Shown here: in pieces, positions 54,901 through 60,900 of the stretch
How positions within the stretch are numbered: position 1 is the stretch's first letter
Layout of the letters: each line of letters opens with the position of its first letter
NCBI RefSeq assembly: GCF_001677475.2
Contig: NZ_CP015229.1
Length of the DNA: 64,000 nucleotides
Direction: 5' to 3' (one strand)
Source: Escherichia coli
GTDB lineage: Bacteria > Pseudomonadota > Gammaproteobacteria > Enterobacterales > Enterobacteriaceae
Made by a program: the position numbers

Positions 54901-57900
54901 AGTTTATCGTGATAACGCCCCGGTGCGACCCAACCCACGCGCAGGCCTGGAGCAATACTTTTACTGAACGAGCTGCACAACAGCACTCGCCCGTCGATAT
55001 CCCATGAATGAATGGTCCGCGGGCGCGGATACTCCGTTGCCAGTTCGCCGTAGACATCATCTTCAAAAATCACAATATCATGACGCTGAGCGAGAGAGAG
55101 AACGGCCCGTTTGCGCGCGTCCGGCATAATAAATCCCAGCGGATTATTACAGTTTGGCACCAGAATGATGCCTTTAATCGACCACTGTTCCAGCGCCAGT
55201 TCCAGCGCTTCAACGCTGATGCCTGTTTCTGGATCGGTTGGGATTTCAATCACTTTCACGCCCATGCCACGCAGCATCTGCATCGAACCGTAATAACAGG
55301 GGGATTCGACCGCGACAATATCGCCCGGTTTACACACTGCCATTAACGCCAGCGACATCGAGTTATGGCAGCCGCTGGTGATAATGATGTCATCGGCGGT
55401 GACCACCGAGCCGCTGTCGAGCATCAGGCGGGCAATCTGCTCTCGCAATACCCGCTGACCGGCTAACAAGTCATAACCGAGAACGGTTTGCAGATTATGC
55501 TGCACCACCCGGCTTAGCTCCCGCCACAGCGGTTTCAGGCTGGGCGTTTCGACATCCGGCGTGCTTTTGCTTAACGGAACAATGGAACTGTCGCTATGCG
55601 CCACCAGCATATCCAGCACCTGATCCCACTGGGTAATTTCCACCGGGCGCTGCACCGGACGCGTCATCGGCGGTACAGGCGGCTGGGCTTTACGTTGTGC
55701 GACAAAATAACCCGAACGCGGCTGCGGAGTGATGAGCTTCATCGTTTCCAGCGTCTGGTACGCCTGCTGCACGGTGCTGATGCTGACGCCGTGCTCCTGG
55801 CTTAAGCTGCGCACCGACGGCAATTTCTCCCCGTGACGATACAGCCCCTGCTCAATCCGCTCGGCAAGTAGAGTCGCCAGATGTTGATAACGCGTCATGC
55901 TGTATTCCTTATTTGGACCATACAGAGAGAAAAACCGGTACAGATGAGGCTAAAAAACCGGATGCAGATGCTGTTTTAACCTGTCTGTATGTTAAATAAA
56001 ACTAATATTTGCATCTGTATTGTGAACTGCCAGAAGGCGGATGATTAAGCCTCTGAAAGATGAGGAGGCAGCAGATGGAATTTCACGAAAACAAAGCTAA
56101 AGCACCGTTTATTGGACTTGTGCAACTCTGGCAGGTGATGAGGCGTTGGCGGCGGCAAATGCAGACCCGACGAGTGTTACAGCAGATGAGTGATGAGCGG
56201 TTGAGGGATATTGGGTTACGCAGGGAGGATGTGGAGTGATGGGGCTGTTCGTCGCGGATAAACAGGATTTCTATATAACCTTCACAAGGAAGTGTTTATT
56301 ATTGTGAAATCATCGCTTCACGGAAAGACGTCAGAATGAAAGCAACAGAAGCCCGTTTACTCGATTTTTTAAAACGTTCGCAGCAGTTTGTTATTCCCAT
56401 TTATCAACGCACCTATTCATGGACAGAGCAACAATGTCGGCAACTTTGGGACGACATCATTCGTGCCGGAAAGCGTGACGATATATCCGCGCATTTTATC
56501 GGTTCGGTTGTTTATATAGAGCAGGGGTTGTATCAGGTTTCCGGTATTTCTCCGTTGCTGGTCATTGATGGTCAACAGCGGCTGACGACCGCAATGTTGC
56601 TGATTGAGGCTTTATCGCGCCATCTTGGCGAAGAAGAAGTTTTTGATGGCTTTTCGGCAATGAAATTGCGTAATTATTATTTACTCAATCCTTATGAGTC
56701 CGGTGAGAAAGGATTTAAATTACTGCTGACCGAGACCGATAAAGACAGTTTGCTGGTGTTAATAAAACAAAGACCAATGCCAGAAAACTATTCCCATCGA
56801 ATAATGGAAAATTTTAGTTTCTTTGATGAGCAAATTACCAAACTCGGTGATGACTTGATCCCCTTATGTCGTGGGTTAGCAAAGCTATTAATTGTCGATG
56901 TGGCGCTTAATCGTGGTCAGGATAATCCGCAACTGATTTTTGAAAGTATGAACTCCACCGGTAAGGCGTTAAGTCAGGCCGATCTGGTGCGCAATTTTAT
57001 TCTGATGGGCCTCGAACCAGAGCATCAAACACGGTTGTATGAAGATCACTGGCGTCCAATGGAAATCGCTTTTGGTCAGCAAGGTTACAGCGAATATTTT
57101 GACAGTTTTATGCGTCATTATCTGACGGTAAAAACGGGGGAGATCCCTCGGACAGATGAAGTCTATGAGGCATTTAAACTACATGCCCGCAGCCAGAGTG
57201 TTGCTGAAAAAGGCGTAGATCGGCTGGTTGAAGATATACACATCTACGCGGAGTATTACTGTGCAATGGCATTGGGTAAGGAAAGTGACAAATCGCTTGC
57301 CACGGCTTTTCAGGATTTGCGCGAGTTAAAGGTCGATGTGGCGTATCCTTTCTTACTGGCGCTTTATCATGACTATAAAAATGGCGTTTTGTCTCACGAA
57401 GATTTCCTGAGCATAATTCGTTTAATTGAATCTTATGTTTTCCGCCGTGCAGTGTGTGCAATTCCGACGAATTCTTTGAACAAGACGTTTGCCACTTTTT
57501 ATAAGATCATTAATAAAGAAAATTATCTGGAAAGCATTCAGGTGCATTTTATGAACCTGCCTTCGTATCGTCGTTTCCCCAACGATGATGAATTTAAACG
57601 GGAATTAAAAGTTCGCGATCTCTATAACTTCCGCAGTCGCAGCTACTGGTTACGACGACTAGAAAACGATAAACGCAGAGAGCGCGTGGAAGAGTTTACG
57701 ATTGAGCACATTATGCCGCAGAACGAAAACCTGTCGGCTAAATGGCGCGAAGAGCTGGGAAGCGACTGGCAGCGTATTCATAAAGAATTGTTGCATACGT
57801 TGGGGAATCTCACTTTAACGCGCTATAACTCCCGCTACAGTGACAGACCTTTCGCGGAAAAACGCGATATTGAAGACGGCTTTAAGCATAGCCCGCTCTA

Positions 57901-60900
57901 TTTGAATATCGGTCTTGGGCAGTGCGAAAAATGGGATGAAGCCGCCATTCGCGCCCGAGCCGATCGTCTGGCCGATCTCGCGGTTCAGGTCTGGCAAGCG
58001 CCTTCTCTTCCTGAAGAGGTATTAGCTGTTTATCGGGGTCAGCCGGAGAACAAAACCAGTTACAGCCTGAGTGATTATCCTTTCCTTGCTGATGGTTCGC
58101 ATAGCCGGGTGTTATTCGATCATCTTCGCGATGAAGTTATGCGCCTGGACGCAGGGATCACACAGGAAGTTTTAAAGCTGTATATTGCGTTTAAAGCGGA
58201 AACGAATTTTGTTGATGTTGTGCCGCAAAAAAGCCGACTGCGATTGTCGCTTAATATGCAGTTTCATGAACTGGTCGATCCGAAAGGTATTGCCAAAGAT
58301 GTGACAAATGTTGGGCGCTGGGGCAATGGTGATGTGGAAATTGGTTTCAGCGACCTCGCACAACTTCCTTACATTATGGGATTAATTCGTCAGGCATTTG
58401 AAAAACAGATGGAGAGTGCGTTGGTATAACGTGGCGAATAATACCCGGTAGCACTGGCGCTACCGGGTCAATCTATCAGGCGACTTTCTGTTTACCGGCA
58501 ATCACCCCAATAAATTCCTGCACCTGCTTTTGTTTACGTGCCGACAGCTTGCACACCTGGCGCAGTGACTGCATCAGTTCGCTCTCTTCGGGGGCGGGTG
58601 GTTGGGTGGTGAGGATAATACAGCCTTCCATCACTTTGACATCTACCGCCGTGCCAGTGGCAAAACCGGCGGCTTCCAGCCACTGACCTTTCAGGGTGAT
58701 GGCGGGAATGCGGCTGTAATCCGGGTAGCGACTCGCATAACTCACGGTTAATTGACGGTTATTTGCTGGGGAGACTTCTGCTTCGAACGGTTGTGCAATA
58801 GAATGCGTGTCAGTCATGATTACTATTCCTTTGAAATAGGGATTGTGATTAGCGGTGCGGGTGTGTTGGCGCACATCCGCACCGCGCTAAATACCTGTAT
58901 ATATCATCAGTAAATATGGGGAAAGTCCAGCTAAAAATTAATGAAAATAAGATGAAAATTAGCGTACAATATAATTTTTGGTGATGTGAATAAAGCGGCT
59001 ATTTAGCCGCTTTATTGGTTTTATGAGGGCGAGGAAATTAGTTTATCGCCGCGTCAGTGAGTGCGTCTGCAAGGTGCAGTTGGGTTTGCTGGGCGGATTG
59101 GATATGATTCTTTAATTCTTCACATAGTTTATAAAAAATATGTAGTTTACTCATTATTTTTTTTGCTTCTGAGCTAGGAGGAATAGCAACAGGACAACCT
59201 CTGAGCTGGGTTTTATTAATAGAGGCTAAATTAGTGGTTTGCTTACTTGCGTTAGCAAAATATTGTCTTGAGAATGGGCTATTCATATATGTTTCTAACC
59301 AATATGGATCAACATCTTGCCCTATATTTCGTCCTTTGAATACATGGTTTTGATTTGCTATATACCAGTCATGACACCATACTGTAGTTCTCCCGACTGT
59401 ATCCCAGTCGCCGCCTTCTGTGATCAATAAATCTCCCTTGACTACTTGATATTTTTCTTTTTCCTCAATAGGGATTTCAATCTGTTTAATTTCCGTAAGA
59501 TCAAGATATCCGCGTTGGACGTTTGCCACACGTAAATAAGGAACTTTTACCAAAGTTCTATTTGATAAATTTCTTCCTTTAGTGATACCACTTTGAATAT
59601 CAATAATATCTTCAAATAAACACCACTCCCACCCTTCCGGCAGTTCAAATGGTTTTTCCTCATCGCTAATTGGCGGCAACGGTTTTTGTTTTTTTATTTT
59701 TCCTTTTTTCACCAGTTGAGCTTTTTCCTGCGCAATTCGTTTGAGCAGTTCAGAGGCAGGTTCGTCATTCGGATCCTGCGGCACAAGTTTACCCATTACG
59801 GCCAGTTGCAGAATGGTCTGTTTTAATGCATCCACGCTGGCTTCGGTGGTAAATAGTGTGTCGAAATGCTCGCTAATACGCGCCCAGTTTTCAGCCAGTT
59901 CCTCGGCGTTTTGGCTGTCTGTAAGCGTTCCCAACAGGGTTTCAACCAGTTGCTGATGTGCGTCCAGACTGGCCAAGGATTGCTGTTCCAGTTGGTCGCA
60001 AAGGGACATGAGCTCCTGTACTTTGGATACAATACGTATTTGTTCTTGGTAAGGTGGTAAAATAACAGGGATCTCTTTTAACTTAGACGCTTTTATTCCT
60101 GTTGCGGTCATGCCTGTAGATTTGTCACTTAGTTGTGACTGGAAGGGGATCGCCAGGATTTGAATAAGCATAAAAGGGCTTATCTCTGGAGTATGCCATT
60201 GAAAACAGATAGAACGTTGAGCAAGAGCGAACTTTCCGTCTAAATCAATAATCGCTGCATTCCCCAGTGGTGCTTCAGTCGTGAATAAAATATCACCACA
60301 TTTAGGAAAGCCTCTTGTCATCCATGATATGTAATCTTCTTCAGATATGAACTCTTCTGGATTGAGATCAATATAGCCCTTTCTGATATTTTTTGCTGTT
60401 ATAAGCCTTATACCATTTTCTTTTTTATGTGGTGTTTTTCCTCGGTAATCGATGAATTTAGCTAAATTACCAAGTCTTATCCATGACCACTTTTCGGGGG
60501 TATCGATATAATATTCATTTCCATGGATATTAGTGCTTGCTGTGGTTTTCATACCATTATTGCGCGCTAATTCTTTTTTCCGTTCTTCATTACGCTTCAG
60601 CAGCTCCGACGCTGGTTCATCATTCGGATCCTGCGGCACTAGTTTACCGCGCACCGCCAGTTCCAGAATCAGCTCACGCAATTTCTTAATGCCATACAAA
60701 TCAATTTTACCGGAACTGCCGCGCCCGGCGGTGGAACGGGTTTGCAACGCCGAGGTCCAGGTTGCCATATGATCAACGATCAGCTTTTCCACACTCATCA
60801 GTTAACCTCCTTGCCAGACAGCGCAGCGCCAAGAATATCGCGCAGTTGATTACGCAGCGTCTGGATCTCCGCCTGCTGTTTTGCATACTGCGCTAACAAT

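What the first reader, a model, noticed from the sequence alone, without database searches (positions are those of the whole stretch)
56336..58429. Intact GmrSD-like DUF262/DUF1524 nuclease where K-12 has a yjiT pseudogene and mcrBC
Between yjiS and symE this strain has one 697-aa ORF carrying both DUF262 hallmarks (IPIYQRTYSW, DGQQR) and DUF1524 His-Me finger hallmarks (EHIMPQ, GNLTL). K-12 has the yjiT/yjiV pseudogenes and mcrCB at this position; mcrBC is absent here. The immigration-control region therefore appears to carry a different type IV-like restriction function, next to a type IB-like hsd system.
Basis: partly seen in the sequence, partly recalled or inferred. Interest (0 to 1): 0.55.

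Follow-up and report, generated by a model that had tools for sequence, protein, structure and literature searches.

The report
Known GmrSD-like nuclease beside hsd genes
The window really does carry an intact 697-residue GmrSD-family nuclease gene where E. coli K-12 has mcrBC, but this gene and its position are already described in about a quarter of E. coli genomes, so the finding is correct and largely ordinary.

Summary
Window 56336..58429 (+) is one uninterrupted 697-aa ORF with Pfam GmrSD_N (DUF262), GmrSD_C (DUF1524) and a C-terminal DUF5655 domain. All four quoted motifs are present. It lies between yjiS and symE/symR, next to a type IB (EcoAI-family) hsdSMR. No mcrB, mcrC, mrr or yjiT is detectable in the 64 kb window.

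It is not new. The orthologue APECO1_2080 was listed as an immigration-control-region GmrSD homologue in 2015. A 2025 review counts GmrSD homologues in 12% of enterobacterial ICRs. Close relatives belong to CLS_001, the commonest enterobacterial GmrSD cluster in Silas et al. 2025. 1402 of 5426 complete E. coli genomes carry the gene, and most copies look intact.

I infer an NTP-gated His-Me finger nuclease acting as a stand-alone, probably modification-dependent restriction enzyme. No activity has been shown for this clade in anything I could read.

I add four points:
- Its nearest solved relative is DndI, then SspE, not BrxU.
- The clade is unusually conserved: about 70% identity across Bacteria and Archaea, against about 30% for the neighbouring Hsd proteins.
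- Elsewhere it is usually embedded in type I or other methyltransferase-based defence operons.
- DUF5655 has a YjbR/MotA-like "double-wing" fold.

RefSeq often annotates intact copies as two fragments.

The parts
56336..58429 (+). 697-aa ORF encoding the GmrSD-family nuclease (DUF262 + helical linker + DUF1524 + DUF5655)
   Evidence: ORF list; Pfam; PADLOC 'Orf5' PDLC02693 at 4.4e-222 and HEC-06 at 7.4e-68; exact protein on record.
56360..57001 (+). N-terminal DUF262/GmrS ParB-Srx-like NTPase domain (aa 9-222). It holds P21-x-Y23-Q24-R25, VIDGQQRLTT (aa 76-85) and F202-x3-N206.
   Evidence: Pfam GmrSD_N 1.5e-34. All these residues are invariant in 25 homologues. P21/Y23/Q24 align to DndI P23/Y25/Q26 (PMC11662687).
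57002..57577 (+). All-helical linker region (aa 223-414)
   Evidence: AF2 full-length model: helices, block pLDDT mostly about 70-93 in this stretch. The profile match to DndI spans the full length.
57578..57976 (+). DUF1524/GmrD His-Me finger nuclease domain (aa 415-547). Motifs are IEHIMPQ (456-462), LGNLTL (489-494) and N498.
   Evidence: Pfam GmrSD_C 1.5e-26. E457, H458, N491 and N498 are invariant. N498 aligns to DndI N541, and E457/H458 correspond to HEC-06 E471/H472; both are needed for activity in those proteins (PMC11662687; bioRxiv 10.1101/2024.01.29.577857).
58106..58405 (+). C-terminal DUF5655 domain (aa 591-690), double-wing / YjbR-like fold, probable DNA-binding module
56075..56239 (+). 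Context: yjiS (DUF1127), 96 nt upstream on the same strand
   Evidence: Gene call and Pfam YjiS-like in the near-identical contig L004; annotation in orthologous E. coli loci.
58476..58817 (-). Context: symE toxin gene, convergent with the nuclease gene (46-nt gap)
   Evidence: NCBIfam endoribonuclease SymE, 227 bits against a cut-off of 132; L004 gene call.
58812..58888 (+). Context: symR antitoxin sRNA, antisense to the symE 5' end
   Evidence: Rfam RF01809, 93.4 bits against a gathering score of 61.
59038..62303 (-). Context: hsdS (59038-60798) and hsdM (60798-62303) of a type I R-M system
   Evidence: ORFs; NCBIfam partial matches; Pfam Methylase_S and HsdM_N/N6_Mtase in L004.
62334..64000 (-). 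Context: hsdR, EcoAI/EcoEI (type IB) family, running off the window end
   Evidence: The reading frame is open to the window end. It is 100% identical to residues 257-810 of L004 HsdR. Pfam EcoEI_R_C; RefSeq name in orthologous loci.

Best explanation
The ORF encodes a single-chain GmrSD-family enzyme. It probably works as a stand-alone, NTP-gated restriction nuclease that covers DNA the neighbouring type I R-M system cannot restrict, most plausibly base-modified phage DNA.

Inferred working, by analogy with DndI, SspE, BrxU and HEC-06:
- The N-terminal ParB/Srx-like DUF262 domain binds and hydrolyses NTP at DGQQR.
- It reads a DNA feature through the conserved Pro-x-Tyr-Gln-Arg patch.
- This controls the position of the C-terminal half.
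- The DUF1524 His-Me finger (E457-H458, N491, N498) nicks or cuts the DNA.
- The extra C-terminal double-wing domain (DUF5655) supplies an additional DNA contact.

Shown here: the architecture, the motifs, their conservation and the genomic associations.

Inferred: nuclease and NTPase activity, the anti-phage role, and above all which DNA is attacked.
For: - Both GmrSD domains are present, with every family motif intact and invariant across 25 homologues.
- There are strong full-length matches to PADLOC defence profiles: 'Orf5' at 4.4e-222, HEC-06 at 7.4e-68 and mREase_IV at 1e-27.
- HEC-06 is a validated single-protein defence that needs its DGQQR and EH residues (bioRxiv 10.1101/2024.01.29.577857).
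- The residues equivalent to DndI R87 and N541, both essential there, are conserved here as R82 and N498.
- In 27 of 41 homologous loci with at least 5 kb of flank on both sides, hsdM/S/R lie within 8 kb. They are usually on the same strand with 0-4 nt overlaps.
- Four of the loci without hsd sit in other methyltransferase-based defence systems: DUF499/DUF1156 MTase, type IIG/DISARM-like, type III and BREX PglZ.
- This matches two experimentally established precedents, BrxU inside BREX and TgvAB inside a type I operon. Both are modification-dependent enzymes that complement the host system (PMC8565348; PMC11411939).
- The gene is under strong purifying selection. Synonymous sites are saturated while amino-acid identity stays at 63-72%.
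Against: - No activity has been shown for this clade in any text I could read.
- Silas et al. 2025 tested representatives of each of their 15 GmrSD groups on T-even phages, which should include this clade's cluster. Only 5 new systems were active, and I could not read which.
- The protein is very distant from the enzymes known to cut hmC or glucosyl-hmC DNA.
- Its nearest solved relatives, DndI and SspE, depend on a host modification rather than a phage one.
- Extreme conservation is atypical of type IV enzymes, which are thought to be in an arms race with phage inhibitors.
- In this window the gene is convergent with hsd and separated from it by symE, so it is not co-transcribed with hsd.
Confidence: 0.55

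Rival explanations
1. It is a methylation-coupled second restriction arm that works like DndI or SspE. The nuclease attacks DNA in general, or DNA lacking the host mark. It is held off or regulated by the adenine methylation laid down by the neighbouring methyltransferase. In effect it would serve as an alternative R component for m6A-based systems.
For: - DndI is the only significant hit by fold (Foldseek 4.7e-10) and the best by sequence profile (4.9e-16, full length). SspE comes next.
- The DndI phosphorothioate-sensing residues P23/Y25/Q26 are identical and invariant here as P21/Y23/Q24. BrxU has Ile at the Tyr position.
- The gene is tightly embedded, with overlapping stop and start codons, in type I operons in the orders M-S-G-R, M-G-S-R and M-S-R-G.
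- It is otherwise embedded in other methyltransferase-based systems.
- A conserved, sequence-independent readout would fit the unusually high conservation.
Against: - Type I specificities differ between hosts, so the sensor would have to read m6A in any sequence context.
- E. coli is also Dam-methylated.
- The methylated base was not determined for any neighbouring methyltransferase here. Apart from type I HsdM and BREX PglX, which are known adenine methyltransferases, m6A is an assumption.
- For about 9-10 of the 41 well-flanked loci no neighbouring methyltransferase system was identified. Most of them were not examined.
- In Escherichia the gene is on the opposite strand to hsd.
- O157:H7 keeps hsdRMS while the nuclease gene is frameshifted. 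This shows the two are separable in at least one direction.
- No dnd or ssp genes appear among the Pfam-annotated gene calls of the 22 kb around the gene.
Confidence: 0.15
2. It is a guard of the restriction system, comparable to PrrC in EcoprrI or to PARIS. The nuclease would stay latent and be triggered when a phage anti-restriction protein, such as a DNA mimic like Ocr or ArdA, or Stp, disables the neighbouring methyltransferase-based system.
For: - The M-S-G-R gene order is the same as prrA-prrB-prrC-prrD (established knowledge of EcoprrI). Payne et al. describe PrrC as almost exclusively embedded in type I systems.
- The gene is associated with several different systems, some of which (type I, BREX) are known targets of DNA mimics.
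- The high conservation despite different partner families argues for a common trigger.
Against: - The partner Hsd proteins are only about 30% identical and belong to different families, so a conserved physical interaction with them is unlikely.
- Stand-alone copies and opposite-strand copies exist.
- No known GmrSD-family member works this way.
- This is an analogy only, with no direct evidence.
Confidence: 0.07
3. The gene is intact but has no current function in this strain. It would be a cryptic or poorly expressed passenger of the hsd cassette, on its way to decay as in O157:H7.
For: - The O157:H7 lineage carries a G5-to-G4 frameshift.
- Truncated remnants exist in other E. coli (H17, H106, H107) and in Shigella flexneri NCTC1.
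- The simple scan found no promoter-like site in the 96-nt gap after yjiS.
Against: - All six 2094-nt E. coli copies inspected are intact at about 98% amino-acid identity. A spread sample gave 18 of 25 copies of full length.
- Synonymous saturation with 63-72% amino-acid identity across phyla shows long-term purifying selection on the family.
- The gene may simply be co-transcribed with yjiS.
Confidence: 0.1

Closest known systems
APECO1_2080 and its orthologues (UTI89_C5048, c5421, ECP_4674): ICR-associated GmrSD homologues of He et al. 2015, Sci Rep 5:9747
   Same: It is the same gene. The APEC O1 chromosome carries a 2094-nt copy at 96.3% nucleotide identity in the same place (H88). He et al. 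describe it as lying in an ICR with an endoribonuclease, hsdS/M/R, Mrr and a GTPase, where McrBC is absent.
   Different: It was annotated there as 733 aa, presumably from an upstream start. It has only been described bioinformatically. The window allele differs by about 3.5% at nucleotide level and about 2% at protein level from common E. coli alleles.
CLS_001 of Silas et al. 2025 (Nat Commun 16:7828), the most abundant GmrSD cluster in Enterobacteria
   Same: Two members of CLS_001 are homologues found here. AGB79837 is P0030, at 74% identity. WP_001531297 is the 699-aa E. coli allele (the P0021 cluster, 76% identical to the window protein; locus L091).
   Different: Membership of the window protein itself is inferred from those identities. 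The accession list I could read was truncated. Whether the CLS_001 representative restricted T-even phages could not be read.
DndI of Salmonella enterica Cerro 87 (PDB 9JFL; NAR 2024, PMC11662687)
   Same: It is the nearest solved structure by sequence profile (4.9e-16, full length) and by fold (4.7e-10). It has the same DUF262 + helical + DUF1524 layout. It shares P-x-Y-Q-R, DGQQR and EH...N...N, and the residues essential in DndI (R87, N541) are conserved.
   Different: Identity is only about 18%. DndI is 596 aa and lacks DUF5655. It is linked to dndBCDE/dndFGH and is regulated by phosphorothioate. No dnd genes lie around this gene.
HEC-06 (Payne et al., bioRxiv 10.1101/2024.01.29.577857)
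   Same: It is a single-protein GmrSD-like defence with an EHxxP-type nuclease motif. The PADLOC HEC-06 profiles match the window protein over aa 8-555 at 7.4e-68. It was found embedded in a methyltransferase-based system.
   Different: The HEC-06 profiles are about 560-570 positions long, cover only aa 8-555 of the window protein and do not include DUF5655. HEC-06 is embedded in Hma rather than type I systems. The window protein matches a different PADLOC group ('Orf5') much better, at 4.4e-222.
BrxU (pEFER BREX island) and Eco94GmrSD/GmrSD-CT596
   Same: Both have the same two Pfam domains and the DGQQR and (D/E)HxxP motifs. BrxU is likewise embedded in a methylation-based system.
   Different: BLASTP against BrxU gives 24% over 88 aa. 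hhalign gives 71% probability for the DUF262 domain only. BrxU is not matched in PDB searches, and PADLOC assigns it to HEC-05. He et al. report 24% identity to Eco94GmrSD. BrxU has PAIQR where this protein has PIYQR, and neither of those enzymes has DUF5655.
TgvAB of Vibrio cholerae VPI-2 and RloF of Campylobacter jejuni
   Same: Both are GmrSD-like genes embedded in type I R-M operons (Machnicka 2015).
   Different: TgvAB needs two proteins, a DUF262-only TgvA plus TgvB. Here there is a single gene with no DUF262-only partner.

Membership tests
GmrSD family (Pfam PF03235 + PF07510; Machnicka et al. 2015) | N-terminal DUF262/GmrS domain carrying the (I/V)(I/V)DGQQRLTT motif | tested here: met
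   GmrSD_N at aa 9-222, E 1.5e-34. VIDGQQRLTT at aa 76-85, invariant in 25 homologues.
GmrSD family (Pfam PF03235 + PF07510; Machnicka et al. 2015) | C-terminal DUF1524/GmrD His-Me finger with (E/D)HxxPQ and L(G/A)NLxL...N | tested here: met
   GmrSD_C at aa 415-547, E 1.5e-26. IEHIMPQ at 456-462, LGNLTL at 489-494 and N498 are all invariant. The second Asn lies one residue earlier than in the published pattern.
GmrSD family (Pfam PF03235 + PF07510; Machnicka et al. 2015) | NTP-stimulated cleavage of hmC or glucosyl-hmC DNA and restriction of T-even phages | not testable with these tools
   This needs enzyme or plaque assays. Published tests of a CLS_001 representative exist, but the result was not readable.
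GmrSD sensu stricto (Eco94GmrSD / CT596 / BrxU clades) | Recognisable full-length sequence similarity to the characterised enzymes | tested here: not met
   For BrxU: 24% over 88 aa, hhalign on DUF262 only, and no match in PDB profile or fold searches. He et al. report 24% identity to Eco94GmrSD for the orthologue.
DndI / SspE phosphorothioate-sensing nucleases | DUF262 + DUF1524 with the Pro-x-Tyr-Gln hydrophobic sensing patch | tested here: met
   P21/Y23/Q24 align to DndI P23/Y25/Q26 and to SspE PpYQR. They are invariant in the clade. This is sequence-level evidence only, because the N-domain model was poor.
DndI / SspE phosphorothioate-sensing nucleases | Genetic linkage to dndBCDE or sspABCD modification genes | tested here: not met
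   The 22 kb around the gene encode yjiL-yjiS, symE, hsdSMR, yjiA, yjiX and btsT only. Related loci carry hsd or other methyltransferase systems. The rest of the genome is not visible.
DndI / SspE phosphorothioate-sensing nucleases | Phosphorothioate-modulated NTPase and nickase activity | not testable with these tools
   This needs biochemistry.
HEC-06 (PADLOC) | Match to the HEC-06 profiles over the full length | tested here: inconclusive
   E 7.4e-68 over aa 8-555. A different PADLOC group ('Orf5', PDLC02693) matches far better at 4.4e-222, so this is a related clade rather than HEC-06 itself.
Defence-system-embedded GmrSD-like genes (BrxU in BREX, TgvAB or RloF in type I) | Located inside, and co-oriented with, a methyltransferase-based defence operon | tested here: inconclusive
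   This is met in most relatives (27 of 41 well-flanked loci, orders MSGR, MGSR and MSRG, 0-4 nt overlaps). In this window the gene is adjacent but convergent, with symE/symR between it and hsdS.
TgvAB-type two-protein systems | A second, DUF262-only partner gene that is required for activity | tested here: not met
   The neighbours are yjiS (DUF1127) and symE. There is no second DUF262 gene.

The most novel reading that the evidence does not exclude
The roughly 700-aa DUF262-DUF1524-DUF5655 clade may be a universal accessory nuclease of methyltransferase-based defence systems (type I, type III, BREX, DISARM/Hma-like), not an ordinary type IV enzyme. It would read the host's methylation state, as DndI and SspE read phosphorothioate. 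Alternatively it would fire when anti-restriction proteins disable the partner system. Either reading would explain why the clade is conserved at about 65-70% identity from E. coli to methanogens while its partner Hsd proteins are only about 30% identical. That the relevant mark is m6A is my assumption; the methylated base was not determined for the partner enzymes.
Probability: 0.12. Interest if true: 0.7.

Novelty: already known. Interest (0 to 1): 0.25.

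Why it matters
As stated, the finding adds nothing to published comparative genomics of the E. coli immigration control region. It does point to a gap. The most common GmrSD-type gene in Enterobacteria is present in about a quarter of complete E. coli genomes, and it is conserved across bacterial phyla and archaea, yet I could find no stated target or activity for it. Knowing what it restricts would bear on phage-therapy host range and on transformation barriers in wild E. coli. It would also help explain why methyltransferase-based defence operons so often carry this one gene. 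A practical point is that RefSeq annotation splits intact copies into a pseudogene plus a 387-aa protein. Automated defence-system censuses may therefore undercount the gene or miscall it.

Tried and rejected
- NCBIfam gave no family for the protein.
- The full-length AlphaFold model from 25 close homologues was poor (mean pLDDT 65.8, DUF262 domain below 50). I therefore used it only for a Foldseek search, and I drew no structural conclusion about the N-terminal sensing patch.
- I could not find what PADLOC means by 'Orf5'. Two literature searches turned up nothing relevant. I suspected it is the DndI group but did not test that.
- A literature search for DUF5655 returned one irrelevant paper.
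- I tried to read whether Silas et al.'s CLS_001 representative was active against T-even phages. The figures and the third sheet of Supplementary Data 6 are not held.
- I first read the RefSeq two-feature annotation as meaning the gene is split in all E. coli. Translating the DNA showed this is wrong. Only the O157:H7-type copies are frameshifted.
- I considered recent horizontal transfer as the reason for the high conservation and rejected it. Third-codon positions are saturated, and GC3 ranges from 0.35 to 0.90 in line with the hosts.
- Proteins of 250-650 aa carrying DUF5655 looked like new architectures. They turned out to be mostly fragments of this same family.
- The promoter and terminator scan near the gene did not exceed shuffled expectation.

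Full report
**Observation.** Window 56336..58429 (+) is a single 697-aa ORF starting at ATG. Pfam finds GmrSD_N/DUF262 (aa 9-222, E 1.5e-34) and GmrSD_C/DUF1524 (aa 415-547, 1.5e-26).

The identical protein is on record as ANO92262.1, "DUF262 domain-containing protein [Escherichia coli]", on 34 contigs. A contig differing from the window at 3 of 17,665 positions has the same gene order. There is no frameshift.

**Surroundings.** The local order is yjiR (-), yjiS (+), the ORF (+), symE (-), hsdS (-), hsdM (-), hsdR (-). symR lies antisense to the symE 5' end at 58812-58888.

- hsdR is open to the end of the window and 100% identical to an 810-aa EcoAI/EcoEI-family (type IB) HsdR.
- K-12 has the yjiT pseudogene, helicase pseudogenes, mcrC and mcrB between yjiS and symE.
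- K-12 McrB, McrC, Mrr and YjiT have no tblastn match anywhere in the window.

**How common it is.**
- 1402 of 5426 complete E. coli genomes carry at least 80% of the gene, nearly all at about 96-97% nucleotide identity.
- RefSeq lists two features under almost every hit: a partial "DUF262" pseudogene and a 387-aa "GmrSD restriction endonuclease domain-containing protein". This suggested at first that the gene is broken in E. coli.
- Translating the DNA shows otherwise. The copies in JNEC-KY177, ATCC 8739, an O121 strain, Ch1 and HB37 are intact 697-aa ORFs, 97.8-98.7% identical to the window protein.
- Only the O157:H7-type copy is truly frameshifted, by a G5-to-G4 contraction near ORF nt 801.
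- In an evenly spaced sample, 18 of 25 copies span 2094 nt and 7 span 2093 nt.
- A second allele (699 aa, 76% identical) also sits in the ICR of other E. coli. It lies beside a different type I system, with Fic and BrnA genes.

**Already in the literature.**
- The APEC O1 chromosome carries the orthologue at 96.3% identity (H88). This is APECO1_2080. He et al. 2015 listed it, with UTI89_C5048, c5421 and ECP_4674, as a diverged GmrSD homologue (24% identity to Eco94GmrSD). They placed it in an ICR that lacks McrBC and holds an endoribonuclease, hsdSMR, Mrr and a GTPase (PMC4437046).
- A 2025 EcoSal Plus review reports GmrSD homologues in 12% of 9,040 enterobacterial ICRs. It says type IA, IB and ID hsd families are accompanied by mrr, mcrBC or gmrSD and by the brnAT, symE-symR and rpn modules (PMC12707154).
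- Silas et al. 2025 clustered enterobacterial GmrSD proteins. Their largest cluster, CLS_001, contains AGB79837 (my P0030, 74% identical) and WP_001531297 (the 699-aa allele).
- They synthesised a representative of each of 15 groups and tested them on T-even phages. Five new ones were active, but I could not read which.

**Family placement.**
- PADLOC's best match is a group called "Orf5" (PDLC02693, 4.4e-222, aa 10-553). Then come HEC-06 (7.4e-68, full length), mREase_IV (1e-27) and SspE (3e-21, N-terminus). The C-terminus matches PDC-S18.
- Against PDB sequences, the family profile hits DndI (9JFL, 4.9e-16, full length), then SspE and an unnamed DUF262 protein. BrxU is not matched even at E of 10 or less.
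- Foldseek with the imperfect full-length model finds only DndI (4.7e-10).
- Direct comparison with BrxU, taken from pEFER, gives 24% identity over 88 aa. hhalign gives 71% probability, restricted to DUF262.
- BrxU reads PAIQR where this protein, DndI and SspE read P-x-Y-Q-R. In DndI, P23, Y25 and Q26 form the phosphorothioate-sensing patch (PMC11662687).
- The residues shown to be essential in DndI (R87, N541) and HEC-06 (Q79/R80, E471/H472) correspond to R82, N498, Q81/R82 and E457/H458 here. All are invariant in the clade.

**The clade elsewhere.** A scan of one genome per species returned 80 loci at 62-98% amino-acid identity. They span Gammaproteobacteria, Cyanobacteria, Planctomycetota, Actinomycetota, Acidobacteriota, Akkermansia, Saccharibacteria and three methanogen genera.

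- Among 41 loci with at least 5 kb on both sides, 27 have hsdM/S/R within 8 kb. These are mostly on the same strand with 0-4 nt overlaps, in the orders M-S-G-R, M-G-S-R and M-S-R-G.
- Among the loci without hsd I sampled ten neighbouring proteins from six loci. Four loci held other methyltransferase-based systems: DUF499 plus DUF1156 methyltransferase, a type IIG/DrmMI-like enzyme plus Snf2 helicase, DrmD plus type III Mod/Res, and PglZ. The sampled neighbours in the other two loci gave no such match.
- This agrees with Machnicka et al. 2015 and Payne et al., who noted that GmrSD-like genes are frequently embedded in type I and other systems.
- Only in Escherichia and Pseudocitrobacter is the gene on the opposite strand to hsd.

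**Unusual conservation.** In 26 loci that have all three genes, median pairwise identity is 69.9% for this protein, 31.0% for HsdM and 30.3% for HsdR. Third-codon-position identity at conserved residues is only 34-47%, and GC3 ranges from 0.35 to 0.90. The conservation therefore reflects long-term purifying selection, not recent transfer. This contrasts with the "virtually no similarity" reported between other GmrSD variants, and I cannot explain it.

From memory, YjbR and the MotA C-terminal domain are described as "double-wing" DNA-binding motifs. I therefore take DUF5655 to be an extra DNA-binding module. Most other proteins that carry it are fragments of this same family.

**Mechanism.** The best-supported reading (0.55) is an autonomous, NTP-gated His-Me finger nuclease. 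It would complement the neighbouring type I system by restricting DNA that type I cannot, most likely base-modified phage DNA, as BrxU does for BREX and TgvAB for a type I system.

- Shown: architecture, motifs, conservation and gene neighbourhood.
- Inferred: activity, target and anti-phage role.
- Rivals: a DndI-like nuclease regulated by host methylation (0.15), a guard triggered by anti-restriction proteins (0.07), and a cryptic passenger gene (0.10).

**Verdict.** The finding as stated is already known. The residual interest lies in the uncharacterised, unusually conserved clade and its near-obligate association with methyltransferase-based defence systems.

Noticed in passing
L001 6437-8530; L087-L089 301-2394; L090 3191-5284 (E. 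coli RefSeq loci orthologous to window 56336-58429): RefSeq/PGAP annotates intact 697-aa ORFs as a partial 'DUF262' pseudogene plus a separate 387-aa 'GmrSD restriction endonuclease domain-containing protein'. Translation shows no internal stop in any of these five copies. This looks like a systematic annotation artefact, probably seeded by the frameshifted O157:H7 proteins.
   Followed up: yes
L002 6437-8529 (E. coli O157:H7 F6294), equivalent to window about 57133-57140: The O157:H7-type copy is inactivated by contraction of a G5 run to G4 (ACGGGGGAG to ACGGGGAG) near ORF nt 801. This gives 293-aa and 387-aa pieces. Seven of 25 evenly sampled E. coli copies have the 2093-nt length.
   Followed up: partly
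L006-L086 (80 loci from genome contigs): The clade keeps 62-72% amino-acid identity between E. coli, many bacterial phyla and methanogenic archaea. Synonymous sites are saturated, while the adjacent HsdM and HsdR are only about 30% identical. Such conservation is unusual for a defence nuclease and remains unexplained.
   Followed up: partly
L091 8001-10100 (E. coli NQ3): A second allele (699 aa, about 76% identical) occupies the ICR of other E. coli. It is divergent from a different type I system with a long HsdM, and is followed by Fic and BrnA genes. Two distinct hsd cassettes therefore each carry a member of the same clade.
   Followed up: partly
L007 and L010: Contigs labelled 'MAG: Bacillota bacterium' and 'MAG: Collinsella sp.' encode this protein at 98% identity. 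L007 also has the E. coli gene order (symE, hsdS, hsdM, hsdR). They are probably E. coli contigs mis-binned into those MAGs.
   Followed up: no
L015 and L017, about 9653-9973 (Idiomarina baltica, Pseudidiomarina piscicola): Only a 106-aa HsdR-like remnant lies directly upstream of an intact nuclease gene. The type I system seems to have decayed while the embedded gene survived.
   Followed up: no
window 53287-54243 (+): An intact 318-aa Rpn-family (recombination-promoting nuclease / Transposase_31) gene. The corresponding gene is annotated as a pseudogene, with a frameshift or internal stop, in K-12, O157:H7 F6294 and JNEC-KY177.
   Followed up: no
window 58812-58888 (+) and 58476-58817 (-): A complete symE/symR type I toxin-antitoxin pair lies between the nuclease gene and hsdS. 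Only 46 nt separate the convergent stop codons of the nuclease gene and symE, and no terminator-like hairpin was detected in that gap.
   Followed up: partly
window 37796-43036 (-) and 45602-47575 (-): A 1745-aa inverse-autotransporter adhesin (IatC/intimin-like N-terminus) and a 656-aa pentapeptide-repeat protein. The latter lies in a low-GC stretch (0.32-0.40 GC at about 45-48 kb). This looks like horizontally acquired, virulence-type cargo upstream of the ICR.
   Followed up: no
window 48000-53000: The best match of this conserved yjiL-mdtM stretch among 5,426 complete E. coli genomes is only 98.1% identical. No complete RefSeq genome has the window's nuclease allele above 97%. The source strain therefore seems to belong to a lineage poorly represented among complete RefSeq genomes.
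   Followed up: no
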